Positions 1-13,762 of a stretch of DNA of 64,000 nt are shown piece by piece. How positions within the stretch are numbered: position 1 is the first letter of the stretch; every line of letters begins with the position of its first letter. A program made the translations under genes and the position numbers. The notes below the pieces were generated by a model. The model did not search any database. It was given only the letters and a program-made list of their open reading frames with translations, and had not been told where the DNA came from. This stretch comes from an uncultured Planctomycetota bacterium (GTDB lineage: Bacteria > Planctomycetota > Planctomycetia > Isosphaerales > Isosphaeraceae): contig CAWGMQ010000011.1 in NCBI GenBank assembly GCA_963823665.1, positions 160,001 to 224,000 on the forward strand, read 5' to 3'.

Positions 1-739
1 GCTGGATTGTCGGGCTGCCAGAGGCGAAGGTCGTCCAGATCATCGGCACGGCGCGGGGATCCGTGATCTGATAGACTTCGCGCTGAGCCTTGAGCCTGCG
101 GGCCTCAATCGTGCTTTCCAGTGCGGCGCGTAGTTTTTCCAGTCGCGGTCTCCACTCCTTATCGGCGCGCTTCTGTCGATCGGCTTCGAGTTTCTGGACG
201 GCCAGGTCGTCGGGCTTGACCCAGCGATCGTGGTTTTTCTTGTAGCCGAGGCGGACCCACGCGATATCGCGGGAGGGGTCGAGGCGGGTGACCACGTTGT
301 AGTGAGCCATGGCCTCATCCTTGAGCCCCTTTTCCAGGCACCAGGCAGCGAGTCGCAACTGGGCGTCCGCGTTCTTCTGGGGTGTGCGAACGCGGCGATC
401 AAGGTATTCGCGAAAGACGGCCTGGAGCTCGGGATCCTCGTGGATTTCCTTCTCGACCTGGTCGGGTTTGGCCCATTTGCCTTGGAAGGCGATCAGGCCG
501 AGGAGCGCTCGGGCAAGCGCGTTTGAGGGGTCGAGAGACGACGCGATGGAGAGGTGCTTGATTCGCTCGGCGGAGAGGCCGTGGGTTTCGCACCAGAGGG
601 CGAGCTTCACGTGCGCGGCGGCGTTCTTGCCGGCGTTGGCGGCGGCAGTCTGATAGGCAGCGCGATCGGCGGGTGTCGCCTCGGCGAGCTTGCCGTCGTC
701 GCCCAACATGAGGAAGCAGAGCAGAATTGCTTGGACCAT
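1..739 (-). CDS. Hint-array paralogue 7 (5' part only, runs off window); TPR/HEAT-like N-terminal scaffold
   Basis: Not in the ORF track because it has no stop in the window. Manual translation from ATG at 739 gives MVQAILLCFLMLGDDGKLAEATPADRAAYQTAAANAGKNAAAHVKLALWCETHG...DPRAVPMIWTTF, colinear with the other six copies; GGAG RBS upstream. Confidence 0.9.
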   Translation of the reverse strand, partial: MVQAILLCFLMLGDDGKLAEATPADRAAYQTAAANAGKNAAAHVKLALWCETHGLSAERIKHLSIASSLDPSNALARALLGLIAFQGKWAKPDQVEKEIHEDPELQAVFREYLDRRVRTPQKNADAQLRLAAWCLEKGLKDEAMAHYNVVTRLDPSRDIAWVRLGYKKNHDRWVKPDDLAVQKLEADRQKRADKEWRPRLEKLRAALESTIEARRLKAQREVYQITDPRAVPMIWTTFASGSPTIQ

Positions 740-803
740 GATTTTCTCCAAAGGCGGGGCGATACTCGCGATTCTGAATATTGCACGTTGGCAATGAGGA
801 CAA

Positions 804-2717
804 CTACTTCTGCGCTGGCGGCGCCTCCGTTCGCTGGCGGTCGAATGGCTCGGTAACCGGGAGGACGAAGCTGAAATCGTGCACCAGCAGACCGGAGGAG
901 CCTACCAGGAAGTCACGGGCCTGGGCGACGTCCAGGTTATACACCTTCTGGGATGGGCCCGGCTCGATCGATTCAACTTTCACGACGCCGCAGATCATGC
1001 GGAGCCGATCGCCGACGCTCAAGTCGCGTGCCATGGTCCAGCCTTTGCCGGCCTTCCAGAAGCGGTGAATGCCGGTGGCGACGATGGTTTCGCCGCCTGC
1101 GGAAATTCGCAGCGTATCGGCGGGGCCATTCACGTGCGTGGCGAGCACGGGCTGGAACGAGAGGGCACCGGTTCCGGTGTCCTGCGAGAGGACGCGGTCG
1201 CCGAGGGCGATCGCCTCGATCTTGCGTGGGCCGGCGAAGGTCTGGACCAAGGTTCCGGCTCCGAAGCAGGCGTTGTGGGGAACCAGGATCGGAAACCCGA
1301 CGAAATCGGTAAACGTGGGCTTGTTCTCGGCATATCGGTCATCGATGACGACGCCCTGCTGGTCTGCCCACCACGTTTGCCAGGCCTGGGGATCAGCACC
1401 AAAACTCTGGCCGGTGAGCGATCGCAGGAGCGGCAGCACAGTGTCGTCGGTCTGTCTGATTTGCGCGTTGACCTGCTCGATCGTTTCGACGTCGCTTTCC
1501 AGTTTCTGCTGCACGATCTGATCGCGGCGAACGCTTTCCTGGAAGAGCGCCGTGGCGACTTGCTGTTGTGCCAGTGCGTGAGCCCGGCCGGAGATCGTCA
1601 TCACGGCCGCAGCGCCGTTGCCGGACTGACCGGCGGCGGGTGTGGGAGTGACCAGCATCGCATTCCAGGCAATTGTTGCGGGTGGGACCAAGCCAACCTC
1701 CACGTCGGGGAAACGATAGAAGCGCCGGATGTCGAACCGTTCGCCGTCGACGAAGAGGGCGCCGATCGATCCAGGGCCGGATCCCGGCCTGATTTCGTAT
1801 TTGAATGGCCGATGAATGGCGGCTACGAGCCAGCCGATCACGTCGCGGGGGTCGCGGTTCGTCAGGGCTTTGGCGGCGCGCGAGCGGACATCGGCCGAGG
1901 GCCTCTCGACGGCGAGCACGGCCAGTCCGAACGATGCCGCGGGCCCTTCGATCTGGGAGAGCAGCTCGACGGCGACGAGCTGCATCTTTTCACTGCCGTG
2001 GCCGAAGATCTTCCAGATCATCGGCAGCGCGCGGGGATCGGTTACCTGGTAGAGCTCGCGCTCGGCTTTCAACCGGCGCGTCTCGACCGGGCTTTCCATG
2101 GCTTCGTGCAGCTTCTCGAGTCTCGTCTTCCACTCTTTATCGGCGTGCTTCTGGCGCTCAGCTTCGAGCTTCTGGGCCGCGAGAACCTCGGGCTTTGACC
2201 AGCGGTCGAGGTGCTTCTTGTAGCCAAGGCGAATCCAGGCGATGTCTCGCGACGGATCGAGGCGGGTGACCAGATGGTAGTGGGCCATGGCCTCGTCCTT
2301 GAGTCCGTTTTCGAGGCACCAGGCGGCCAGGCGCAACTGGGCGTCGACGTTTTTTGGAGGTGTGCGCACGCGGCGATCGAGGTACTCGCGGACGAGGGCC
2401 TGGAGCTTGGGGTCGGCGTGGATTTCCTTCGCGACCTCGTCGGGTTTGGCCCATTTGCCCTGGAAGGCCATCAGGCCCAAGAGGGCGCGGGCCAGCGCAT
2501 TTGAAGGGTCGAGAGACGACGCGATGGTCAGGTGCTTGATTCGCTCCGAGGAAAGGGTGTGGGTTTCGCACCAGAGGGCGAGCTTCACGTGCGCGGCGGC
2601 GTTCTTGCCGGCCTTGGCGGCGGCCGTTTCGTAGGCGGCGCGATCGCTTGCAGCTCGCTCGGGGGGTTTGCCGCCGTCGGTGAGGATGGCACAACAGAGC
2701 AGGATGGCGTGGAGCAT
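804..2717 (-). CDS. Hint-array paralogue 6: TPR/HEAT-like scaffold + variable segments + C-terminal Hint (PT-HINT-like) domain
   Basis: ORF 804..2732; start placed at MLHAILL (2717) by homology. Hint motifs HNA|CFGAGTLV, TIVATGIHRFW, VYNLDV, LLVHD (Hint 876..1268). Confidence 0.9.
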   Translation of the reverse strand: MLHAILLCCAILTDGGKPPERAASDRAAYETAAAKAGKNAAAHVKLALWCETHTLSSERIKHLTIASSLDPSNALARALLGLMAFQGKWAKPDEVAKEIHADPKLQALVREYLDRRVRTPPKNVDAQLRLAAWCLENGLKDEAMAHYHLVTRLDPSRDIAWIRLGYKKHLDRWSKPEVLAAQKLEAERQKHADKEWKTRLEKLHEAMESPVETRRLKAERELYQVTDPRALPMIWKIFGHGSEKMQLVAVELLSQIEGPAASFGLAVLAVERPSADVRSRAAKALTNRDPRDVIGWLVAAIHRPFKYEIRPGSGPGSIGALFVDGERFDIRRFYRFPDVEVGLVPPATIAWNAMLVTPTPAAGQSGNGAAAVMTISGRAHALAQQQVATALFQESVRRDQIVQQKLESDVETIEQVNAQIRQTDDTVLPLLRSLTGQSFGADPQAWQTWWADQQGVVIDDRYAENKPTFTDFVGFPILVPHNACFGAGTLVQTFAGPRKIEAIALGDRVLSQDTGTGALSFQPVLATHVNGPADTLRISAGGETIVATGIHRFWKAGKGWTMARDLSVGDRLRMICGVVKVESIEPGPSQKVYNLDVAQARDFLVGSSGLLVHDFSFVLPVTEPFDRQRTEAPPAQK

Positions 2718-2747
2718 GGTTTTCTCCGGCACAATAATGCGGCGAGT

Positions 2748-4676
2748 TTACTTGGAGCCAACTGCCGCCGTGCTTGTCAGGCGGTCAAACGGTTCAGAAA
2801 CCGGGAGTACGAAACCGTAGTCGTGTACGAGCAGGCCGGCGGAGCCGACCATGAAGTCGCGGTTCTGTGCGACATCGAGGTTATACACCTTCTGGGATGG
2901 GCCGGGCTCGATTGATTCAATTGTCACGACGCCGCCGATCATGCGGAGGCGATCGCCGGCGCTCAAGTCGCGGGCCATGGTCCAGCCTTTGCCGGCTTTC
3001 CAGAATCGGTGGATGCCGGTGGCGACGATCGTTTCGCGACCTGCGGAAATACGAAGCGTCTCCGTGGGTCCATTCACGTGGGTAGCAAGCACGGGCTGGA
3101 ACGAAAGGGCACCGGTCGTTGTGTCCTCCGAGAGGATGCGGTCGCCGATGGCGATCGACTCGATCGTGCGCGGGCCGGCGAGTGTCTGAACCAATGTCCC
3201 GGCGGCGAAACAGGAATGGTGCGGAACGACGTCCGGCAGCGAGACGAAATCGGTGAACGTGGGCTTGTTCTGGGCCTGGGCATACCGGTCATCAACGACG
3301 ACGCCGAGCTGGTCTGCCCACCAAGTTTTCCACGCCTGCGGGTCGGCGCCAAAATTCTGGCCGGTGAGCGAACCGAGCAGCGGGAGCACGCGGTCGTTGG
3401 TCTGGTTGATCTGGGCATTCACGTCCTCGACCATCGCGACGTCGCTTTCGAGTTTCTGCCGCACCACCTGGTCGCGAGCGAAGGCTTCTTGCAACATTAT
3501 GGCGCCGAGCTGCTGCCGCCCAATTGCATAGGCCCTGCCCGACAGCGTCATCATGGTCGACACCTGCGACGCGCTCGAACCGGCCTGCGTGGTGACGGGA
3601 GCCGGGTTCAAAATCGGCAGGTTCGCGAGAACCTGAACCGGTGGCATCAATTGAGCCTCCACCTCCGGGAAGCGATAGAATCGCCGGATGTCAAATCGTT
3701 CGCCGTCCACAAGAAGCGATCCGGTCGATCCGGGGCCGGCTCCGGGCTTGATTTCGTACTTGAACGGCCGATGGATGGCGCTCACGAGCCAGCCAATGAC
3801 GTCTCGGGGATCGCGGTTCGTGAGGGCTTTGGCGGCACGCGAGCGGACGTCGGCCGACGTCCGTTCGAGCGCTAGCACGGCCAGTCCGAACGACGCCGCT
3901 GGCCCTTCGACCTGGGAGAGGAGCTCGACGGCGACGAGCTGCATCTTTTCACTGCCGTTGCCGAAGGTTTTGAAGATCATTGGAAGCGCTCGGGGATCGG
4001 TCACCTTGTAGAGCTCACGCTCGGCCTTCAGCCGCCGTGTCTCGATCGAGCTTTCCATGCCGTCGCGCAGCTTCTCGAGCCGCGGCTTCCACTCCTTATC
4101 GGCTAGTTTCTGGCGATCGGCTTCAAGCTTCTGGGCCGCGAGAACCTCGGGCTTTGACCAGCGGTCATGGTGCTTCGTGAATCCGAGCCGAAGCCAGGCG
4201 ACATCCCGAGAAGGGTCGAGTTGCGTCACGACGTGGTAGTGCGCCATCGCCTCGTCCTTGAGTCCGTTTTCGAGGCACCAGGCGGCGAGTCGCAACTGGG
4301 CGTCGACGTTTTTTTGAGGTGTGTGCACGCGGCGATCGAGGTACTCGCGGTAGAGGGTGTCAAACTTCGGGTCGGCGTGGATTTCCTTCTCAACCTGGTC
4401 GGGTTTGGCCCATTTGCCCTGGAAGGCCACCAAGCCCAAGAGGGCGCGGGCAAGCGCATTTGAAGGGTCGAGAGACGACGCAATGGTCAGGTGCTTGATT
4501 CGCTCTGAGGAAAGGCCGTGGGTTTCGCACCAGAGAGCGAGCTTGACGTGCGCGGCGGGGTTTTTGCCGGCTTTGGCGGCGGCCGCGTCGTAGGCGGCTC
4601 GATCGGCGGTGGTCGCCTCGGCGGGTTTTCCGCCGTCACCCACCAACACAAGGCAGAGCAGGATTGCGTGGAGCAT
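2748..4676 (-). CDS. Hint-array paralogue 5
   Basis: 642 aa; HHS|CFAAGTLV ... TGIHRFW ... VYNLDV ... LLVHD (Hint 2820..3212). Confidence 0.9.
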   Translation of the reverse strand: MLHAILLCLVLVGDGGKPAEATTADRAAYDAAAAKAGKNPAAHVKLALWCETHGLSSERIKHLTIASSLDPSNALARALLGLVAFQGKWAKPDQVEKEIHADPKFDTLYREYLDRRVHTPQKNVDAQLRLAAWCLENGLKDEAMAHYHVVTQLDPSRDVAWLRLGFTKHHDRWSKPEVLAAQKLEADRQKLADKEWKPRLEKLRDGMESSIETRRLKAERELYKVTDPRALPMIFKTFGNGSEKMQLVAVELLSQVEGPAASFGLAVLALERTSADVRSRAAKALTNRDPRDVIGWLVSAIHRPFKYEIKPGAGPGSTGSLLVDGERFDIRRFYRFPEVEAQLMPPVQVLANLPILNPAPVTTQAGSSASQVSTMMTLSGRAYAIGRQQLGAIMLQEAFARDQVVRQKLESDVAMVEDVNAQINQTNDRVLPLLGSLTGQNFGADPQAWKTWWADQLGVVVDDRYAQAQNKPTFTDFVSLPDVVPHHSCFAAGTLVQTLAGPRTIESIAIGDRILSEDTTTGALSFQPVLATHVNGPTETLRISAGRETIVATGIHRFWKAGKGWTMARDLSAGDRLRMIGGVVTIESIEPGPSQKVYNLDVAQNRDFMVGSAGLLVHDYGFVLPVSEPFDRLTSTAAVGSK

Positions 4677-4733
4677 TTGTTTCTCAGTTCGGCGTCTGAG
4701 GGTGGCCGCGAAGGTGACACGTTGGCGATGAGA

Positions 4734-6707
4734 TCACTTGGACGCCGCCGGCGCCACGATCGTTTGGCGGTCGAACGGTTCGGGCACCGGTAAAACGAAG
4801 CTGAAGTCGTGGACCAGCAGGCCGGCCGCGCCGACCAGGTAGTCGCGGTTTTCCGCGACGGTCAAGTTATAGACCATTTGTGTCGGGCCGGGCTCGATCG
4901 ATTCGATCGTGGTGGTGCCACCGATCATTCGGAGGCGGTCGCCGGCTTTCAGGTCGCGGGCCATGGTCCAGCCTTTGCCGGCTTTCCAGAAGCGGTGGAT
5001 GCCGGTGGCGACGATGGTTTCGCCGGCCTGCGTGATTCGCAATGTGGCCGATGGACCATTCAGGTGGGTGGCCAGAACCGGCTGGAACGACAGAGCGCCG
5101 GTGGATGTCTGCTGGGACAGGATGCGGTCGCCCACGGTCACCGATTCAATCTTTCGAGGGCCGGTGAGCGTCTGGACCAACGTTCCGGCAGCGAAGCATG
5201 CGCCATGCGGCTGGTGGACCGGTCCCCCGAATACGAGCAGAAAGATGTGGCGGTGCGCCGCACTCGCGCCGATGTCGGGCGGGTTGACCGAATCGACGCG
5301 GGTTGGTTTGGCACTGGGATAACGATCGTCATCGACATAACCGAGCAGATCCGTCCACCAACGCCGCCATGCCTCGGGATCGGCGCCCAGACTCTGCCCG
5401 GTGAGCGTTTCAAGGATAGGGAGCACGCGGTCGTTCAGTTGATCGATCTGCGTGTTCAAGTCCTGTATCATTCTGATGTCGTCCTCGAGCTTCTGCTGCA
5501 CGGAGGCGTTCGCTTGAAGCAACTGTCGGGTCGCGGTGGCGGTCGACATCTCCGGTTCCGGTCTGGCGGTTGCATTGTAATAGGCAAAGGATGTTGCCGT
5601 GTGACCGGCGCCCAAATCCTTGATGAGGACGTGGCCACCAGCGGCGGTGACAGTCGTGAGCTCGAACGCGGGAGGCGCCATGCGCGGATCGAAGGTGGGA
5701 AACCGGTAGAAACGTTTCAGGTCGAACTGCTCGCCGTCGACCTCGAGCGAGCCAGTCGAGCCCGAGCCTGTTCCCTGGTTGATCTTGTACTTGTAGGGCT
5801 TGTGAACCATGTAGATCAGCCGGCCAATCACGTCGCGCGGGTCGCGCTCGAGGAGAGCCTGCGCGGCACGTTTGCGCACGTCCGGTGAAGGTGAATCGAG
5901 AGCAAGCAGTGCAATACCGCTTGAAGCGGTCGGCCCCTCGATCTGGCTGAACAGCTCGACCGCGACGAGCTGGATCGTCTCGCTGCCATTGCAGAAGGTC
6001 CTCCAGATCATCGGCACGGCGCGGGGATCGGTGATCTGATAGACTTCGCGCTGGGCCTTGAGCCTGCGGGTCTCAATCGTGCTCTCGAGCGCGCCTCGTA
6101 GTTTTTCCAGTCGCGGCCGCCACTCCTTATCGGCGCGCTTCTGTCGTTCGGCTTCGAGTTTCTGGGCAGCCAGGTCGTCGGGCTTGACCCAGCGGTCGTG
6201 GGTTTTCTTAAAGCCGAGGCGGACCCACGCGATATCGCGCGAGGGGTCGAGGCGGGTGACCACGTTGTAGTGAACCATGGCCTCGTCCTTGAGTCCGTTT
6301 TCGAGGCACCAGGTGGCGAGTCGCAACTGGGCGTCGACGTTCTTCTGGGGTGTACGAACGCGGCGATCAAGGTATTCCCGGATCAGTGCCTGGAGCTTGC
6401 GGTCGTCGTGGATTTGCTTTTCGACCTGATCCGCTTTGGCCCATTTGCCCTGGAAGGCCATCTGGCCCAGGAGGCCGCGGGCGAGGACGTTCGAGGGGTC
6501 GAGGGTCGATGCGATGGTCAGATGCTTGGCTCGCTCGGAGGAGAGACCGTGAGTTTCGCACCACAGGGCAAGCTTGACGTGCGCGGCGGCGTTCTTGCCG
6601 GCCTTGGCGGCGGAAGCCTCGTAGGCGGCTCGATCGCCGGCGCTTGAATCCGCGGGTTTGCCGCCGTCGGCGAGCAAGGCGACGCAGAGCAGGATGACAT
6701 GGACCAT
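4734..6707 (-). CDS. Hint-array paralogue 4
   Basis: ORF 4734..6722, start at MVHVILL (6707); HGA|CFAAGTLV ... LLVHD (Hint 4806..5198); longest pre-Hint linker. Confidence 0.9.
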   Translation of the reverse strand: MVHVILLCVALLADGGKPADSSAGDRAAYEASAAKAGKNAAAHVKLALWCETHGLSSERAKHLTIASTLDPSNVLARGLLGQMAFQGKWAKADQVEKQIHDDRKLQALIREYLDRRVRTPQKNVDAQLRLATWCLENGLKDEAMVHYNVVTRLDPSRDIAWVRLGFKKTHDRWVKPDDLAAQKLEAERQKRADKEWRPRLEKLRGALESTIETRRLKAQREVYQITDPRAVPMIWRTFCNGSETIQLVAVELFSQIEGPTASSGIALLALDSPSPDVRKRAAQALLERDPRDVIGRLIYMVHKPYKYKINQGTGSGSTGSLEVDGEQFDLKRFYRFPTFDPRMAPPAFELTTVTAAGGHVLIKDLGAGHTATSFAYYNATARPEPEMSTATATRQLLQANASVQQKLEDDIRMIQDLNTQIDQLNDRVLPILETLTGQSLGADPEAWRRWWTDLLGYVDDDRYPSAKPTRVDSVNPPDIGASAAHRHIFLLVFGGPVHQPHGACFAAGTLVQTLTGPRKIESVTVGDRILSQQTSTGALSFQPVLATHLNGPSATLRITQAGETIVATGIHRFWKAGKGWTMARDLKAGDRLRMIGGTTTIESIEPGPTQMVYNLTVAENRDYLVGAAGLLVHDFSFVLPVPEPFDRQTIVAPAASK

Positions 6708-6737
6708 GATTTTCTCCCGCACGCTTGCGCGGCGAGC

Positions 6738-8619
6738 TCATCTGGAAGCAATGGGTGCAGCGTTTGTGACGCGGTCAAACGGCTCGGAAACCGGTTGCAC
6801 GAAGCTGAAGTCGTGCACGAGCAGGCCGGCGCTGCCGACCAGGAAGTCGCGGTTCTCGGCGACCGTCAGGTTATAGACCTTCTGGGTCGGTCCGGGCTCG
6901 ATTGACTGAATGGATACGATTCCGCCAATCATGCGCAGGCGATCGCCGGATTTCAGGTCGCGGGCCATGGTCCAGCCGTTGCCGGCCTTCCAGAAGCGGT
7001 GGATGCCGGTGGCGACGATGGTTTCGCTGCCGAGCGCGATTCGCAGTGTTTGGGACGGGCCGTTCAGATGGGTGGCGAAAACGGGCTGGAACGACAGTGC
7101 GCCGGTTGAAGATTGCTGAGACAGGACGCGGTCGCCGGCGGCGATGGATTCGATCTTGCGCGGGCCTGTGACGGTTTGAACCAGGGTCCCGGCGGCGAAG
7201 CAGGCCGTGTGCGGAACGATCACCTCTGTGAAGAGGGGCTTATCCTCGGAATAGCGCGAGTCGTAGACATAGCCTAGCTGCTCGGTCCACCACTTCTTCC
7301 ACTGTTCGGGGTCGACGCCGAAGTTCTGGTTGGTGAGCGACTCGAGCAGGGGCAGGGTGCGCTCATTCGTCTGGGTGATCTCGGCGTTCCATTTCTCCAG
7401 GTCGCGAACGTCGTCTTCGATCCGACGCTGGGTCAGCTCCGCCACTTGCTGAGAGCGCACAGACGGTTCCGGAAAATAGGAGGTGCCCGGGAAGGCGCTC
7501 GTGAGCATTTGACCGGCGGATCTCGCAGAACCGGTATGTCCGACGTTTGCGCTGGCCTGCTGCATCCCGGATGTAAAATTCAGGACTGGAACGAGCCGCA
7601 AGTCGAGGGGAGGAGGTTCATAAAACCGCTCGAGGTCGAATCGTTCTCCATTAACCTTCAGCAAGGCAGGCGTGCCCGGACCTTGCTCCTGCGTTAGCTC
7701 GTATTGATACGGCTTGTGGATGACGGTGACCAACCAGCCTATGATGTTGCGCGGATCGCGGCGTGCCAGGGCGCGCCTCGCCTGGTCGCGGATCGCAGGC
7801 GACGGCCTCTTGATTGCCAGTGCGGCGATCCAGAACGATGCCGCCGGTCCTTCGATCTGCGAGAGCAGTTCAACGGCGACCACCTGACTTTGCTCGCTTC
7901 CATTTCCCAGGATCATGGCAATCAGCGGGACGGCGGGGGTCGTTCACTTGATAGACCTCTCGTTCCGCCTTCAGCCGCCGTGCCTCGATCTTGCTCTCGA
8001 GTCCGTCGCGCAGTTTCTCGAGACGCGACTTCCACTGTACGTCGGCGCGTTTCTGGCGGTCGGCTTCGAGCTTCTGCGCGGCCAGGTCTTCAGGCTTCTG
8101 CCAGCGATCCTTGTGCTTCTTGTAGCCGAGGCGTATCCAGGCAATGTCGCGGGCGGGGTCCAAGCGCGTCACCAGATAGTAGTGAGCCATCGCCTCTTCA
8201 TTGAGCCCGTGTTCGAGGCACCAATTCGCGAGCCGCAACTGGGCGTCAGCCTTGTTCCGGGGAGCCTGCACGCGGCGCTCGAGGTATTCCCGGAGCCGGG
8301 CCTGGAACTTGGGGTCGTTCTGGATGTCCTGCTCGACCTGGTTGGGTTTCGCCCATTTTCCCTGGAACGGCACCAGCCCCAGCAAGCCTCGCGCCTGAGT
8401 ATTCGGGGGGTCGAGAGCGACGGCGAGCGTCAGATGCTTGGCTCGCTCGGCCGTGAAGCCGTGCGCCTCGCACCAGAGCGCGAGCTGGACGTGCGCGGCG
8501 GCGTTCTTGCCGGCCTTTGCGGCGGCAGCCTCGTAGGCGGAACGATCGGCAGCGTTAGATTCGGCGGGCTTGCTGCCGCCGTCGAGCATGGCACAACAGA
8601 GCAGGATCGCGTGGAGCAT
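6738..8619 (-). CDS. Hint-array paralogue 3 (one frameshift at ~7935, probably a sequencing error)
   Basis: ORFs 7870..8619 and 6738..7916 join into a full copy; 2 nt are missing relative to copy 1 (cggcgggggtcg vs cggcgcgagggtcg). Hint 6810..7202. Confidence 0.85.
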
Positions 8620-8651
8620 GGTTTTCCTTCCGCACAGATAGCGCGGCGGGC

Positions 8652-10589
8652 TTACTTGGAAGCAATCGGCGCAGTGTTCGTCAGGCGGTCAAATGGTTCG
8701 GAAACCGGGAGCACGAAACCGTAGTCGTGTACCAGCAAGCCGGCGGAGCCGACCAAGAAGTCGCGGTTCTCAGCGACGTTCAATTTAAAGACCATTTGGG
8801 TGGCACCTGGCTCGATCGAGTCGATGATGGCGACACCGCCCAGCATGCGGAGGCGATCGCCGGCTTTCAGGTCGCGCGCCATGGTCCAGCCCTTGCCGGC
8901 CGTCCAGAAGCGGTGGATGCCGGTGGCGATGATGGTTTCGCCGGCGAGCGAGATCCGGAACGTTTCGGCGGGACCGTTCAAGTGTGTGGCCAGAACGGGC
9001 TGGAAGGAAAGCACGCCCAAGGTTGTGTGTTGCGAAAGGACGCGGTCGCCGACGGCGATCGATTCGATCTTTCGCGGGCCGCCCAACGTTTGGACCAAGG
9101 TTCCCGAAGCGAAACACGCATGATGCAAGAATACGTTCACATTAACGATGGGGAGTTGTACGGTCAGATCTGGTGCAGTCACGACTTCGGAAAAGGACAG
9201 CTTACCGTCGGAATCACTGTCGTAATTGACGTATCCGAGCTGGTCAGTCCACCAATTTCGCCACGCGTCGGGATTAATGCCGAGCTTCTGGCCGGTTCGC
9301 GATTCCAGGATCGGCAGCAATCGCGCATTGGATTCATCGATTCGCGCATTGACCTCGTCGATCGCGCGAGCGTCATCGTAAACAGCTCGCTGCATCTCGC
9401 CCACTTGCTGCAGGTTCGCGACCGTTGCTTGCGCGAGGATTGCGGATTGCCTCCGCAAGGAGGCAGCTTGGATCGCCGAGGCCTCGGCGATCATCTGGGT
9501 CGCCTGCTGCGGGGTGGCGTCGGGTTGGGGAACCATCAGCACGATGTGGCTCACGGGAACCAGGCGAACGTCGAGGTCCGGGAAACGATAGAGTCGTTGG
9601 AGATCGAACCGTTCTCCGTCGACAAAGAGCGTGCCGGTTGATCCGGGATTCGCTCCGGGCCTGACTTCGTACTTGAAGGGTTTGTGAAGCCGGTTTATCA
9701 TCCAGCCGATGACATCGCGAGGATCGCGGTGTGCGATCGCCTGGGCGGTTCGCGCGCGGATGGCGCTCGAGGGATTGTCGATCGCCATTAACGGCAGGCA
9801 GAACGATGCCCCAGGGCCCTCGATCTGGGTGAACAGCTCGACCGCGACGAGCTGCATCTTTTCGCTGCCGCTGGCAAACGTTCTCCACATCGCCGGCACA
9901 GCGTGAGGGTCGGTAATTTGGTAAAGTTCCTTCTCGGCCTTCAGCGGCCGTGTCGCGACCGAGCTTTCCAGGGCATCGCGCAGCTTCTCGAGCCGGGATT
10001 TCCGGTGCATATCAGCACGCTTCTGGCGATCGGCTTCGAGCTTCTGGGCAGCCAGGTCGTCGGGCTTGACCCAGCGGTCGCGGTGTTTCTTGTAGCCCAG
10101 GCGCAGCCAGGCGATATCCCGGGACGGGTCGAGCCCGGTCACCACGTGGTAGTGAGCCAGGGCCTCGTCCTTGAGCCCGTTTTCGAGGCACCAGGCAGCC
10201 AGCCGCAACTGGGCGTCAGCATTTTTCGAGGGAGTGCGCACCCGTCGCTCGAGGTACTCACGAAAGAGAGCAAGCAGCTTGGGATCGTCGTCCAGGTCGT
10301 GCTTGACCTGTTCGGGCTTGGCCCATTTTCCCTGGAAGGTGACCAGGCCCAGAAGGCCCCGGGCCAAGGCATTTGCCGGGTCGAGCGAGAGAGCCAGGTT
10401 GAGATGCTTCACTCGCTCGGACGTGAGTCGATGCGCTTCGCACCAGAGAGCGAGCTGCACTTGCGCGGGGGCGTTCTTGCCGGCCTTGGCGGCGGCGGTT
10501 TCGTAGGCGGCTCGATCGCTGGCGTTTGATTCGGCGGGCTTGCTGCCGCCGGCGAACAGGGCACAAGAGAGCAGGATTGCGTGGAGCAT
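8652..10589 (-). CDS. Hint-array paralogue 2
   Basis: 645 aa; HHA|CFASGTLV ... TGIHRFW ... VFKLNV ... LLVHD (Hint 8724..9116). Confidence 0.9.
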   Translation of the reverse strand: MLHAILLSCALFAGGSKPAESNASDRAAYETAAAKAGKNAPAQVQLALWCEAHRLTSERVKHLNLALSLDPANALARGLLGLVTFQGKWAKPEQVKHDLDDDPKLLALFREYLERRVRTPSKNADAQLRLAAWCLENGLKDEALAHYHVVTGLDPSRDIAWLRLGYKKHRDRWVKPDDLAAQKLEADRQKRADMHRKSRLEKLRDALESSVATRPLKAEKELYQITDPHAVPAMWRTFASGSEKMQLVAVELFTQIEGPGASFCLPLMAIDNPSSAIRARTAQAIAHRDPRDVIGWMINRLHKPFKYEVRPGANPGSTGTLFVDGERFDLQRLYRFPDLDVRLVPVSHIVLMVPQPDATPQQATQMIAEASAIQAASLRRQSAILAQATVANLQQVGEMQRAVYDDARAIDEVNARIDESNARLLPILESRTGQKLGINPDAWRNWWTDQLGYVNYDSDSDGKLSFSEVVTAPDLTVQLPIVNVNVFLHHACFASGTLVQTLGGPRKIESIAVGDRVLSQHTTLGVLSFQPVLATHLNGPAETFRISLAGETIIATGIHRFWTAGKGWTMARDLKAGDRLRMLGGVAIIDSIEPGATQMVFKLNVAENRDFLVGSAGLLVHDYGFVLPVSEPFDRLTNTAPIASK

Positions 10590-10622
10590 CGTTTTCCTCT
10601 CTCCCGCACGATGGCGACGAGG

Positions 10623-12518
10623 TCACCTGGGCGTTGCCGGCGTTGTGTTGGTTTGGCGATCGAATGGCTCGGAAACCGGTTGCACGAAGCTGAAGTCGTG
10701 CACGAGCAGGCCGGCGCTGCCGACCAGGAAGTCGCGGTTCTCGGCGACCGTCAGGTTATAGACCTTCTGGGTCGGTCCGGGCTCGATTGACTGAATGGAC
10801 ACGATTCCGCCAATCATGCGCAGGCGATCGCCGGATTTCAGGTCGCGGGCCATTGTCCAGCCCTTGCCGGCCTTCCAGAAGCGGTGGATGCCGGTGGCGA
10901 CTATGGTTTCGCTGCCGAACGCGATTCGCAGTGTTTGGGACGGGCCGTTCAGATGGGTGGCGAGAACGGGCTGGAATGACAGTGCGCCGGTTGAAGATTG
11001 CTGAGACAGGACGCGGTCGCCGACGACGATGGATTCGATCTTGCGCGGGCCTGTGATCGTTTGAACCAGGGTTCCGGCGGCGAAGCAGGCCGTGTGCGGA
11101 ACCGGAGCGATCATCTCCATGAAGACGGGCTTAGGCTCGGAAGAGCGCGAGTCGAAGACATAGCCTAGCTGCTCGGTCCACCACTTCTTCCATTGTTCGG
11201 GGTCGAGGCCGAAGTTCTGATTGGTGAGCGACTCGAGCAGTGGCAGGACGCGCTCATTCGTCTGGTTGATCTGGGCGTTCCGTTCCTCCAGGTCGCGAAC
11301 GTCGTCTTCGATCCGACGCTGGGTTAGCTCCGCCGATTCCTGAGAGCGCAGAGTCGGTTCCGTGACGTAGGAGGCGCCGTGGTAGGCGCTCGTGAGCATT
11401 TGACCGGCGAAACTCCCAGAACCGGTATAACCGCCGTGTGCGCTGACATGCTGCATCCCGGATGTAAAATTCAGGACTGGAACGAGCCGGAAGTCGACGG
11501 CAGCAGGTTCGTAAAACCGCTCGAGGTCGAATCGTTCTCCGTTAACCTTCATGAAGGCAGGGGTGCCCGGACCTTGCTCCTGCGTTAGCTCGTATTTATA
11601 CGGCTTGTGGATGACAGTGACCAACCATCCTATGATGTCGCGCGGATCGCGGCGTGCCAGGGCTCGCCTCGCCTGGTCGCGGATCGCAGGCGACGGCTTG
11701 TTGATTGCCATTGCGGCGAGCCAGAACGATGCCGTCGGTCCTTCGATCTGCGAGAGCAGCTCAACGGCGACGACCTGACTTTGCACGTTTCCATTCCCCA
11801 GGATCCTGGCAATCAGCGGGACGGCGCGAGGGTCGTTCACTTGATAGACCTCTCGTTCCGCCTTCAGCCGCCGTGCCTCGATCTTGCTCTCGAGTCCGTC
11901 GCGCAGTTTCTCGAGACGCGATTTCCACTGTTCGTCGGCGCGTTTCTGGCGGTCGGCTTCGAGCTTCTGCGCGGCCAGGTCTTCAGGCTTGAACCAGCGA
12001 TCCCTGTGCTTTTTATAGCCGAGGCGTATCCAGGCAATGTCGCGGGAGGGGTCGAGGCGCGTCACCAGATAGTAATGAGCCATCGCCTCTTCATTGAGGC
12101 CCTGTTCGAGGCACCAATTCGCGAGCCGCAACTGGGCGTCAGCCTTGTTCTGGGGAACCTGCACGCGGCGCTCGAGGTATTCCCGGAGCCGGGCCTGGAA
12201 CTTGGGGTCGTTCTGGATGTCCTGCTCGACCTGGTTGGGTTTCGCCCATTTTCCCTGGAACGGCACCAGCCCCAGCAAGCCTCGCGCCTGAGTATTCGGG
12301 GGGTCGAGAGCGACGGCGAGCGTCAGATGCTTGGCTCGCTCGGCCGGGAAGCCGTGCGCCTCGCACCACAGGGCGAGCTGAACCTGATCCGCGGCGTTTT
12401 TCCCCGCCTTGGCTACGGCGGCTTGGTAGGCGAGGCGATCGGTTGCAGTTGGCTCTGGCTCGGCGGTCTTGCCGCCGTCTGCAAACATGGCACAACAGAG
12501 CAGGATGGCGCGGACCAT
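10623..12518 (-). CDS. Hint-array paralogue 1 (first gene of the array)
   Basis: 631 aa; GGAGG RBS; HTA|CFAAGTLV ... LLVHD (Hint 10695..11087). Confidence 0.9.
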   Translation of the reverse strand: MVRAILLCCAMFADGGKTAEPEPTATDRLAYQAAVAKAGKNAADQVQLALWCEAHGFPAERAKHLTLAVALDPPNTQARGLLGLVPFQGKWAKPNQVEQDIQNDPKFQARLREYLERRVQVPQNKADAQLRLANWCLEQGLNEEAMAHYYLVTRLDPSRDIAWIRLGYKKHRDRWFKPEDLAAQKLEADRQKRADEQWKSRLEKLRDGLESKIEARRLKAEREVYQVNDPRAVPLIARILGNGNVQSQVVAVELLSQIEGPTASFWLAAMAINKPSPAIRDQARRALARRDPRDIIGWLVTVIHKPYKYELTQEQGPGTPAFMKVNGERFDLERFYEPAAVDFRLVPVLNFTSGMQHVSAHGGYTGSGSFAGQMLTSAYHGASYVTEPTLRSQESAELTQRRIEDDVRDLEERNAQINQTNERVLPLLESLTNQNFGLDPEQWKKWWTEQLGYVFDSRSSEPKPVFMEMIAPVPHTACFAAGTLVQTITGPRKIESIVVGDRVLSQQSSTGALSFQPVLATHLNGPSQTLRIAFGSETIVATGIHRFWKAGKGWTMARDLKSGDRLRMIGGIVSIQSIEPGPTQKVYNLTVAENRDFLVGSAGLLVHDFSFVQPVSEPFDRQTNTTPATPR

Positions 12519-12775: not shown

Positions 12776-13714
12776 CTACTTCTTGTCGAGAAATCCCTGA
12801 TTCTTGAGCCAGGTTTCACAGAGCTTGGGCCAGACCTGGAACGACGGTTCGGGCGGCACATTGAACTGGGGCGCCCCCGCGCCAAGTCCGAGCCCGTGCC
12901 GGCCCAGCTCGAAGAGGTGAAGCTCCACGGGAACATGCGCTTTTCGCAGAGCCATCGCAAACAAGAAGCTGTTCTCGGCCGGAACGCCGGAATCGGCGTT
13001 TGTGTGGGCCAGGAAGGTTGGAGGTGTGTCCTTGGTGACCTGGCGCTCGTTCGAGAGGCTTTCGATCAGTTCTTGCGACGGATTTTCGCCCAGAAGGTTT
13101 CGCAGGGAGCCGGGGTGGCCGTAGGGTGTGGCGAGCGCGATGACCGGGTAGACGAGGATCAGCCGGTCAGGCCGGGAACTTTGGCGCTCGACTGGATCTT
13201 CGGCATCAGGTTTTCCCGCACTGAAATGAGTACCGGCCGTCGAGGCGAGATGGCCGCCTGCCGAGAAGCCCATGATCGCGACCCGGCCAGGGTCGACCTT
13301 CCACTTGGCGGCATTGGCGCGGACGGTCTTGATCGCGCGGCCGGCGTCGTCGAGCATCGCGGGATGATGGTAGCGCGGACCCAGGCGGTATTTGAGTACG
13401 AACGCAGCGATCCCCAGACCATTGAGCCACTCGGCGACCTGTTTTCCTTCGTGCTCGACTGCCAGCATGCCGTACCCGCCGCCCGGGCAGACCACCACGG
13501 CCGAGCCGGTTGCTTTTTCGGAGGCAGGCAGCCAGACCGTGATCGACGGCACGTCTTTATCCGGATCGGTTCCCTTTGCTCCCGGCGCACCGCCCGGCCA
13601 GAGCGCAACGACCGGATGCGCTGCCGAGGGCTCATCGGCCTGGCATTTCAGGCTTGCACCAGCGGCCACCACGGCAATCACGACCCCTGCGAATTTCGAG
13701 AGCTTCCTGATCAT
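12776..13714 (-). CDS. Secreted alpha/beta hydrolase (acetyl xylan esterase/lipase-like)
   Basis: Signal peptide MIRKLSKFAGVVIAVVAAG; CPGGGY oxyanion motif; GFSAGGH nucleophile elbow; downstream D and H (HGLGL). Confidence 0.85.
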   Translation of the reverse strand: MIRKLSKFAGVVIAVVAAGASLKCQADEPSAAHPVVALWPGGAPGAKGTDPDKDVPSITVWLPASEKATGSAVVVCPGGGYGMLAVEHEGKQVAEWLNGLGIAAFVLKYRLGPRYHHPAMLDDAGRAIKTVRANAAKWKVDPGRVAIMGFSAGGHLASTAGTHFSAGKPDAEDPVERQSSRPDRLILVYPVIALATPYGHPGSLRNLLGENPSQELIESLSNERQVTKDTPPTFLAHTNADSGVPAENSFLFAMALRKAHVPVELHLFELGRHGLGLGAGAPQFNVPPEPSFQVWPKLCETWLKNQGFLDKK

Positions 13715-13720
13715 GGGATT

Positions 13721-13762
13721 GTCCGATGTCAGTTGTCGGGTATCCGTTGTCAATTGGTAGTT
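13721..13762 (+). repeat. Degenerate heptamer tandem repeat (GTCAGTT-like x6)
   Basis: gtccgat gtcagtt gtcgggt atccgtt gtcaatt ggtagtt, immediately upstream of the hydrolase start. Confidence 0.6.

What the first reader, a model, noticed from the sequence alone, without database searches (positions are those of the whole stretch)
876..11087. All six complete Hint domains end in His-Asp and lack the block-F His: N-terminal-only, Hedgehog-like chemistry
Seen: each Hint is exactly 393 nt (876-1268, 2820-3212, 4806-5198, 6810-7202, 8724-9116, 10695-11087). All keep Cys1 and block-B TGIH, but end LLVHD followed by F/Y, and have xRD[FY] where PT-HINT/inteins typically have H[TN]Y. Known: C-terminal cleavage or splicing usually needs the terminal Asn, and splicing needs a +1 Cys/Ser/Thr; Hedgehog Hint performs only the N-S acyl shift and ligates a nucleophile. 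Inference: these domains form a thioester at the scaffold C-terminus that is hydrolysed or attached to a lipid, glycan or protein. The conserved tail [FY][SG]FVxPVxEPFDR may be an acceptor-recognition element.
Basis: partly seen in the sequence, partly recalled or inferred. Interest (0 to 1): 0.8.

Follow-up and report, generated by a model that had tools for sequence, protein, structure and literature searches.

The report
Aspartate-ending self-cleaving domains of planctomycetes
A large family of exported planctomycete proteins ends in an intein-like self-cutting domain whose last residue is aspartate instead of the usual asparagine, a conserved and apparently uncharacterised variant that probably cuts the protein at one end only in these copies.

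Summary
All six Hint domains are 393 nt, keep Cys1 and TGIH, have Arg at block-F position 13 and end His-Asp before a 23-residue tail. They belong to a nine-gene tandem array of exported TPR/HEAT proteins.

His-Asp marks a family across Planctomycetia. Asp occupies the terminal position in 379 of 385 non-redundant scaffold-linked Hints, and no scaffold-linked Hint has Asn. The Asp is therefore under selection, not a decayed Asn.

N-terminal thioester chemistry is well supported. A silent C-terminal junction in these six copies is likely but not forced:
- Asp-ending inteins can cleave.
- His F13 survives in 86 of 385 relatives.
- A Cys1-less sister clade keeps His F13 plus His-Asp in 13 of 13.

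The 'Hedgehog-like' label fits the architecture only. The closest fold is the A-type BIL 2LWY, and there is no Cys143 or sterol-recognition region. The tail docks on the Hint itself, so it looks like a lid rather than an acceptor-binding module.

Verdict: a new His-Asp variant of A-type BIL/PT-HINT. The chemistry is untested and the acceptor, if any, is unknown.

The parts
2..751 (-). N-terminal part of a seventh array gene (runs off the left edge; its Hint also ends His-Asp)
804..2732 (-). Array gene: signal-like N-terminus, TPR-like helices, HEAT, beta hairpin, hypervariable segment, long helix, WxxWW helix, linker, Hint, tail (637 aa from ATG at 2717)
876..1268 (-). His-Asp Hint 1 (Cys1 codon 1266-1268; Asp codon 876-878)
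807..875 (-). 23-aa tail after the Asp; docks on the Hint in the models
2748..4676 (-). Array gene, 642 aa; Hint 2820-3212, tail 2751-2819
4734..6722 (-). Array gene, about 657 aa; Hint 4806-5198, tail 4737-4805
6738..8619 (-). Array gene split by a frameshift near 7933 (ORFs 7870-8619 and 6738-7916); Hint 6810-7202, tail 6741-6809
8652..10589 (-). Array gene, 645 aa; Hint 8724-9116 (Lys at F4), tail 8655-8723
10623..12518 (-). First gene of the array, 631 aa; Hint 10695-11087, tail 10626-10694

Best explanation
These are exported planctomycete TPR/HEAT scaffold proteins with a C-terminal autoprocessing module: a His-Asp descendant of A-type BIL/PT-HINT plus a short tail that clamps over the active site. 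Step 1 (inferred, strong): after export, Cys1 with the block-B Thr/His forms a thioester with the small residue (Ala/Ser) ending a flexible linker. Step 2 (inferred, moderate): in these six copies the Asp/+1 bond is not cut, because His F13 is replaced by Arg and there is no +1 nucleophile, so Hint plus tail leaves as one piece of about 154 residues. Step 3 (inferred, weak): the invariant Asp sits where inteins have Asn and Hedgehog has Cys143, and so probably acts on the thioester side, holding or activating the incoming nucleophile under the tail lid. Step 4 (open): the thioester is resolved by water (my odds about 65%) or by an envelope amine or hydroxyl (about 35%). The product is a roughly 460-residue scaffold whose hypervariable middle differs among paralogues, which suggests diversified periplasmic or surface binding proteins. 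Only the sequence pattern and predicted folds are shown; no reaction is.
For: Catalytic set conserved in 385 non-redundant (90%) scaffold-linked Hints: Cys1 376, Thr/Ser B7 379, His B10 375, Asn F4 377, His G6 369, Asp G7 379; His F13 only 86; +1 variable, with Ser in 10. Asp survives replacement of His G6 by Tyr, Phe or Arg in Cys1-bearing members, which fits a role other than backbone cleavage. The linker from WxxWW to Cys1 is 11-78 aa, about 40% identical among array genes and the only part of the model under pLDDT 50 (475-481). It is short and fixed in the Cys1-less clade, which ties it to Cys1 chemistry. Structural alignment ends place the Asp on the terminal Asn of inteins and, if the last residues are ungapped, on Hedgehog C400/C143. 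Hint plus tail folds alone at pLDDT 95.7, with tail blocks 96/90/84. Tail positions +4/+6/+7 co-vary with block-B T65/I67/R69. 103 of 109 full-length members have an N-terminal hydrophobic stretch and none a lipobox-like motif.
Against: No biochemical data exist for this family in what I could search. His F13 is dispensable in some inteins, and Asp-ending inteins cleave (PMC4031507). His G6-Asp is kept in 13 of 13 Cys1-less members and in the Cys1-less copy L017 of this genome, so the Asp is constrained even where no thioester can form, which a purely thioester-side role does not explain. The co-variation is confounded by subfamily structure, and no coordinates were returned to check contacts. 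No partner gene is conserved (best neighbour cluster in 14 of 159 loci), so no acceptor is indicated. One window copy has Lys at F4.
Confidence: 0.57

Rival explanations
1. The Asp junction is chemically live. The Asp cyclises to a succinic anhydride and releases the tail. The freed tail amine then attacks the Cys1 thioester (A-type BIL-style splicing without Cys/Ser/Thr), or the anhydride cross-links to an amine, as the FrpC self-processing module does with a different fold.
For: Asn is never seen in scaffold-linked Hints and Asp is near invariant although one transition separates them. His F13 is kept in 32 of 54 distant (PG-tail) members. A clade from 13 genomes, 40-83% identical, lost Cys1 but has Asp F4 (12 of 13), His F13, His G6 and Asp G7 (13 of 13 each): the mirror-image, C-terminal-only signature. 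Precedents: PMC4031507 passages on Asp-ending inteins and type A BIL aminolysis; PMC7078468 abstract on Asp clip-and-link.
Against: In the window copies F13 is Arg. In the Cys1-bearing sisters of that clade F13 is mostly Asn (13 of 17). His G6 is occasionally lost. The tail is docked on the Hint, so a cut may not free it. The His/Asp cluster of the Cys1-less clade could instead bind a metal or be structural. Its 13 members are kin, not independent cases.
Confidence: 0.22
2. The Hint plus tail is mainly a structural or binding cap or intramolecular chaperone. Processing is slow, conditional or absent, and His-Asp is kept because it anchors the tail.
For: His-Asp and the tail motif persist in Cys1-less members from separate lineages (L017, L162 clade, L211 keeps Asp only). 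The tail register is fixed (308 of 308 FD-type tails).
Against: Cys1, His B10 and Asn F4 are conserved in 376, 375 and 377 of 385, which a non-reactive cap would not need. Cys1 loss goes with loss of the variable linker.
Confidence: 0.13
3. Hedgehog-like lipid ligase: the tail recognises a sterol, hopanoid or other lipid that is esterified to the scaffold C-terminus.
For: Signal peptide, N-terminal domain, C-terminal Hint layout. The Asp lies at the Cys143 position. Hint position 46, the Hedgehog D46 position by ungapped count, is His in 189 of 385 family members, and a D-to-His swap keeps Hedgehog active (PMC9163320).
Against: The tail is short (median 24 aa) and 1 of 356 has a 15-residue window above 1.6 hydropathy, unlike the helical sterol-recognition region. 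There is no second conserved Cys. Position 46 is Val/Leu in the six window copies. Hedgehog ranks well below BIL4 in fold score (Z 18.4 against 22.3).
Confidence: 0.08

Closest known systems
A-type bacterial intein-like domain, e.g. CthBIL4 (PDB 2LWY)
   Same: Best match by sequence (E 1e-24) and fold (Z 22.3, rmsd 1.2 A over 134 residues, 34% identity). Same length class, Cys1, TxxH, Asn at F4, His G6, no +1 nucleophile. The family nests among His-Asn Hints of this kind.
   Different: Terminal Asp instead of Asn, His F13 lost in this branch, and a conserved docked tail of about 12 ordered residues. Tied to one scaffold family rather than spread over unrelated hosts.
PT-HINT of polymorphic toxins (Pfam PF07591)
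   Same: Scores above the Pfam cut-off; exported proteins.
   Different: No toxin domain follows (23-aa tail), no conserved immunity-type neighbour was found, and there is no His-Asn to release a C-terminal payload.
Hedgehog Hog domain (PDB 1AT0, 6TYY)
   Same: Signal, N-terminal domain, C-terminal Hint layout; Cys1 and TxxH; Hint fold (Z 18.4-18.7); terminal position not Asn.
   Different: Asp where Hedgehog has Cys143, which is required and forms a branched thioester (PMC12054796). No sterol-recognition region. Ala/Ser rather than Gly at -1. Keeps His G6.
Inteins with terminal Asp or Gln (class 1 variants)
   Same: His-Asp at block G (PMC4031507; the Carboxydothermus example is recalled, paper not held).
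   Different: Those have a +1 Cys/Ser/Thr and interrupt conserved host proteins; these do not.
B-type BIL
   Same: Cleavage uncoupled from splicing (PMC4031507).
   Different: B-type lacks block G similarity, whereas this family keeps the LVH-x block G. Hint_2 matches only the first ~35 residues.

Membership tests
HINT superfamily | Hint fold | tested here: met
   Predicted models match inteins, BILs and Hedgehog at Z 16-22 over 125-136 residues
A-type BIL | Cys/Ser1 and block-B Thr-x-x-His | tested here: met
   6 of 6 in the window; 376 and 375 of 385 in the family
A-type BIL | C-terminal His-Asn | tested here: not met
   His-Asp in 6 of 6; no scaffold-linked Hint has Asn
A-type BIL | No conserved +1 Cys/Ser/Thr | tested here: met
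   +1 is N, F, V, Y mostly; Ser 10 of 385
A-type BIL | Descent from His-Asn BIL/PT-HINT | tested here: inconclusive
   30 of 31 family rows group together (SH-aLRT 82) among Asn-type Hints; one clade not rejected (p-AU 0.79); only 128 columns, midpoint root
A-type BIL | N- and C-terminal autocleavage in vitro | not testable with these tools
   needs purified protein
PT-HINT of polymorphic toxins | Pfam PF07591 above cut-off | tested here: met
   45-61 bits against 27.7
PT-HINT of polymorphic toxins | Toxin domain C-terminal to the Hint | tested here: not met
   Stop codon 23 residues after the Hint; family tail median 24 aa
Hedgehog Hog | Secreted N-terminal domain followed by C-terminal Hint with Cys1 and TxxH | tested here: met
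   (signal peptide judged from hydropathy only)
Hedgehog Hog | Second catalytic Cys (C143) | tested here: not met
   Asp at the aligned position; one Cys in 5 of 6 window Hints; no second conserved Cys in the family
Hedgehog Hog | General base D46 (or His) | tested here: inconclusive
   Position 46 by ungapped count is Val/Leu in the six and His in 189 of 385 relatives; no residue-level structural alignment was returned
Hedgehog Hog | Sterol-recognition region after the Hint | tested here: not met
   Tail short, no helix in either model, not hydrophobic
Class 1 intein with terminal Asp | +1 Cys/Ser/Thr and insertion in a conserved host protein | tested here: not met
   +1 is F/Y in the six; the Hint is terminal, behind a variable linker
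B-type BIL | No similarity to intein block G | tested here: not met
   LLVH-D aligns with intein block G

The most novel reading that the evidence does not exclude
The family is a natural Hint clip-and-link system in which the terminal Asp is a reactive centre (anhydride or acyl relay). Some branches use the Cys1 thioester, others (Cys1-less, with Asp F4, His F13 and His-Asp) use only the Asp junction, to attach exported TPR/HEAT scaffolds covalently to the planctomycete envelope or to other proteins without ATP, a transpeptidase or a +1 Cys/Ser/Thr.
Probability: 0.17. Interest if true: 0.82.

Novelty: new variant of a known kind. Interest (0 to 1): 0.52.

Why it matters
Hint domains are grouped by what their terminal position does: Asn cuts (inteins, A-type BILs) and Cys relays the acyl group (Hedgehog). 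Here a third residue, Asp, is fixed at that position across a family found in at least 12 planctomycete families and expanded to 17 genes in this genome. Natural variants either lack His F13 (these six) or lack Cys1 (a sister clade), giving ready-made pairs to test what a terminal Asp does in a Hint fold. If the scaffold is ligated to an envelope acceptor, it would be an unrecognised way of anchoring proteins in the unusual planctomycete periplasm. If the module only cuts at the N-terminus, a compact 154-residue self-contained domain that does so naturally could be a useful thioester or tag-removal tool. If it is plain hydrolytic maturation, the interest is modest.

Tried and rejected
- Idea that His-Asp is a decayed Asn or an artefact of recent duplication: rejected.
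- Idea that loss of His F13 is coupled to the Asn-to-Asp change: rejected. F13 is His in 86 of 385 and needs 11 changes on the 31 family rows of the tree.
- Reading the junction one residue later (His-Asp-Asn / Ser-Thr as a normal splice site): considered because +1 is Asn in 180 and +2 is Ser/Thr in 322 of 385. Rejected because the Asp aligns structurally with the intein Asn, the six copies have F/Y at +1, and two have Gly at +2.
- A conserved Lys in the linker as internal acceptor: Lys466 is present in 185 of 308 near members and its spacing to Cys1 varies; not persuasive.
- Conserved partner gene: none found. NCBIfam: no family passed its cut-off.
- Scaffold fold: only generic helical-repeat matches, Z up to 8.6; the scaffold was not folded alone. 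ESM Atlas gave unnamed or HEAT planctomycete clusters for the scaffold and general Hint clusters for the Hint.
- First tree: its terminal-residue labels were wrong through a pattern bug; discarded and redone.
- Earlier scan findings: none.
- Literature searches listed no paper on this family. The library lacks most subscription journals; two primary papers on Asp-ending inteins and BILs were not held, and the original BIL survey and the 2005 Hint book chapter were not seen, so an earlier mention of His-Asp BILs cannot be excluded.
- No complex prediction was run.
Full report
Observation. The six stretches are as described: 131 residues from Cys1 to Asp131, TGIH in block B, Arg at block-F position 13, His-Asp at the end and a 23-residue tail. 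Block labels (B7, B10, F4, F13, G6, G7) follow PMC4031507 (passages and section 6) and were assigned by alignment to 2LWY and Mtu RecA and by structural alignment ends. All six pass Pfam PT-HINT.

Anatomy. The Hints end 630-660-residue minus-strand genes. A seventh begins at the left edge and two more lie beyond it, so the array has nine genes. Of the 21 matches in the genome, 17 genes are of the His-Asp type (one is split over two matches) and three are other Hints. An AlphaFold2 model of the 804-2732 gene (pLDDT 90.5) shows, in order: a short N-terminal helix, TPR-like helices, HEAT repeats, a beta hairpin, a low-confidence segment, a 67-residue helix, a WxxWW helix, one strand, a disordered linker (475-481), the Hint and an ordered tail. 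Among the eight intact array genes (the frameshifted one was left out), mean identity is 76% in the TPR-like part and the Hint, 79% in tail +1 to +12, 40% in the linker and 18% in the middle segment. Third codon positions differ at about 45% in the Hint, so the conservation is selection, not recent copying. An N-terminal hydrophobic stretch is present in 103 of 109 full-length members, with no lipobox (a hydropathy test, not a signal-peptide predictor).

Family. Named relatives are planctomycetes, mostly Isosphaeraceae (one record is labelled Gammaproteobacteria and is nearly the same as a planctomycete record). Of the best 120 of 371 close homologues, 118 show His-Asp and two are truncated before it. 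The full-length profile matched 91 of 98 sampled genomes of the window's own family (some are weak partial matches). For 60 genomes from 11 other families, chosen for their strong matches, 61 of 61 readable Hints end in Asp and one is cut off. One large family in the class gave only weak matches, which I did not examine. In 385 non-redundant scaffold-linked Hints: Cys1 376, His B10 375, Asn F4 377, His G6 369, Asp G7 379 (4 gaps, 1 Gly, and 1 Asn that is a non-family protein let in by a loose motif), His F13 86. Among 474 Hints with at least 200 upstream residues (redundant set), 426 have Asp and the scaffold, 38 have Asn and none of these has the scaffold, 2 have Asp in shifted frames, 1 has Gly and 7 are unreadable. 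A quick tree without Cys1, G6, G7 and tail groups 30 of 31 family rows among Asn-type Hints (SH-aLRT 82). One origin is not rejected (p-AU 0.79) but not shown.

What the Asp means. A merely inactivated Asn would drift; this position does not, while F13 and +1 do. Structurally the Asp falls on the terminal Asn of inteins, and on Hedgehog Cys400 (C143) if the last aligned residues are ungapped (only range ends are given). C143 is required and forms a branched thioester (PMC12054796, passages), so this position can reach the N-terminal acyl group. That makes a thioester-side role for the Asp plausible (inference), and its survival when His G6 becomes Tyr, Phe or Arg fits this. Against a purely N-terminal reading: a monophyletic Cys1-less clade (13 of the 30 loci fetched, 40-83% identical) has Gly/Ala1, mostly Ala at B7 and a short fixed linker, yet keeps His F13, His G6 and Asp G7 in 13 of 13 and has Asp at F4 in 12 of 13. 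Its Cys1-bearing sisters have His F13 in only 3 of 17. This is what a C-terminal-only Hint looks like, although a metal site or structural network is also possible and the 13 are kin. The review states that Asp-ending inteins use cyclisation of that residue and that His F13 is not required in all inteins. So the window copies (Cys1 present, F13 Arg) are the best candidates for N-terminal-only activity, but the Asp itself is not proof of a closed junction.

The tail. Its register is fixed: nine residues between the Asp and the [P]FD motif in 308 of 308 near-type tails, and eleven before PG in 50 of 54 distant-type tails, with 23 fitting neither (groups set by pattern, two near members mis-sorted). 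Hint plus tail folds without the scaffold at pLDDT 95.7 with the tail still confident. In a mean-field coupling analysis (effective depth about 295), tail +4, +6 and +7 pair with block-B T65, I67 and R69 among the top 20 pairs (confounded by subfamilies). It is short and not hydrophobic. I read it as a lid over the block-B side of the active site, not a sterol-recognition-like module (the SRR and D303 are described in PMC9163320, passages).

Comparison. It works most like an N-terminal-cleaving Hint with Hedgehog-like layout. By sequence, fold and tree it is closest to A-type BIL4, but it fails the His-Asn test for that type. It fails the Cys143 and SRR tests for Hog, the payload test for PT-HINT toxins and the +1 test for inteins. 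Passages of PMC7765530, PMC5874633, PMC2362128, PMC7664689, PMC3482391, PMC11842431 and PMC7738311 and the abstract of PMC7078468 did not mention this family or a His-Asp BIL type. Searches listed no paper on it. Two primary papers were not held, no supplements were read, and the Carboxydothermus Asp intein is recalled.

Verdict. Real, conserved and apparently undescribed as a group: a new His-Asp variant of A-type BIL/PT-HINT tied to one planctomycete exported scaffold. It is about 8% likely in the lipid-ligase form. No acceptor or biological role is shown.

Noticed in passing
L213-L225 (family f104; e.g. L162:1447-3549): Cys1-less orthologous clade: Gly/Ala1, short helical linker, Asp F4, His F13, His-Asp and a longer tail with a C-terminal Ala-rich extension; candidate C-terminal-only or metal-binding Hint.
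   Followed up: partly
P0186, P0189, P0216, P0227, P0255, P0258; L089:2520-5477: Fusions of an ECF-type sigma-70 factor, a transmembrane helix, the same scaffold and the His-Asp Hint (6 of 13 proteins scanned). ECF genes also neighbour some loci. This suggests the module can act as a periplasmic sensor with built-in cleavage.
   Followed up: partly
window 7925-7940: Gene 6738-8619 is 2 nt shorter than its paralogue next to a G run and is frameshifted; may be a long-read assembly error. Several related loci show similar breaks.
   Followed up: partly
window 8784-8786 (Hint 8724-9116): Lys instead of the conserved Asn at block-F position 4, at an A/T homopolymer boundary; real variant or read error.
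   Followed up: no
L013:913-1977 and L017:1441-2985 (own genome, contigs C7 and C4): Paralogues with Ser1 and no block-B His (L013), or Gly1 and no block-B His (L017), that keep His-Asp and the PxxxxFD tail.
   Followed up: partly
L095:40-1959: The one family member seen with His-Gly at the Hint end; it keeps Cys1, block B and the PT..PG tail.
   Followed up: no
array genes, residues about 336-400: Hypervariable segment (18% mean identity) between the beta hairpin and the long helix; likely specificity determinant of the paralogues.
   Followed up: partly
P0121, P0128, P0130, L115, L122: Proteins with two to four tandem His-Asn Hint domains separated by short linkers, retrieved as outgroup.
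   Followed up: no
G000 whole genome: Genome of 16.46 Mb in 12 contigs, very large for a bacterium; a same-genus genome of about 16.1 Mb has a similar array.
   Followed up: no
window 12776-13753 and L091:12136-14835: The array is flanked by a predicted alpha/beta hydrolase upstream and a planctomycete cytochrome-c/DUF1553-like gene with a DUF1501-like neighbour downstream (labels recalled from sequence motifs, not scanned).
   Followed up: no
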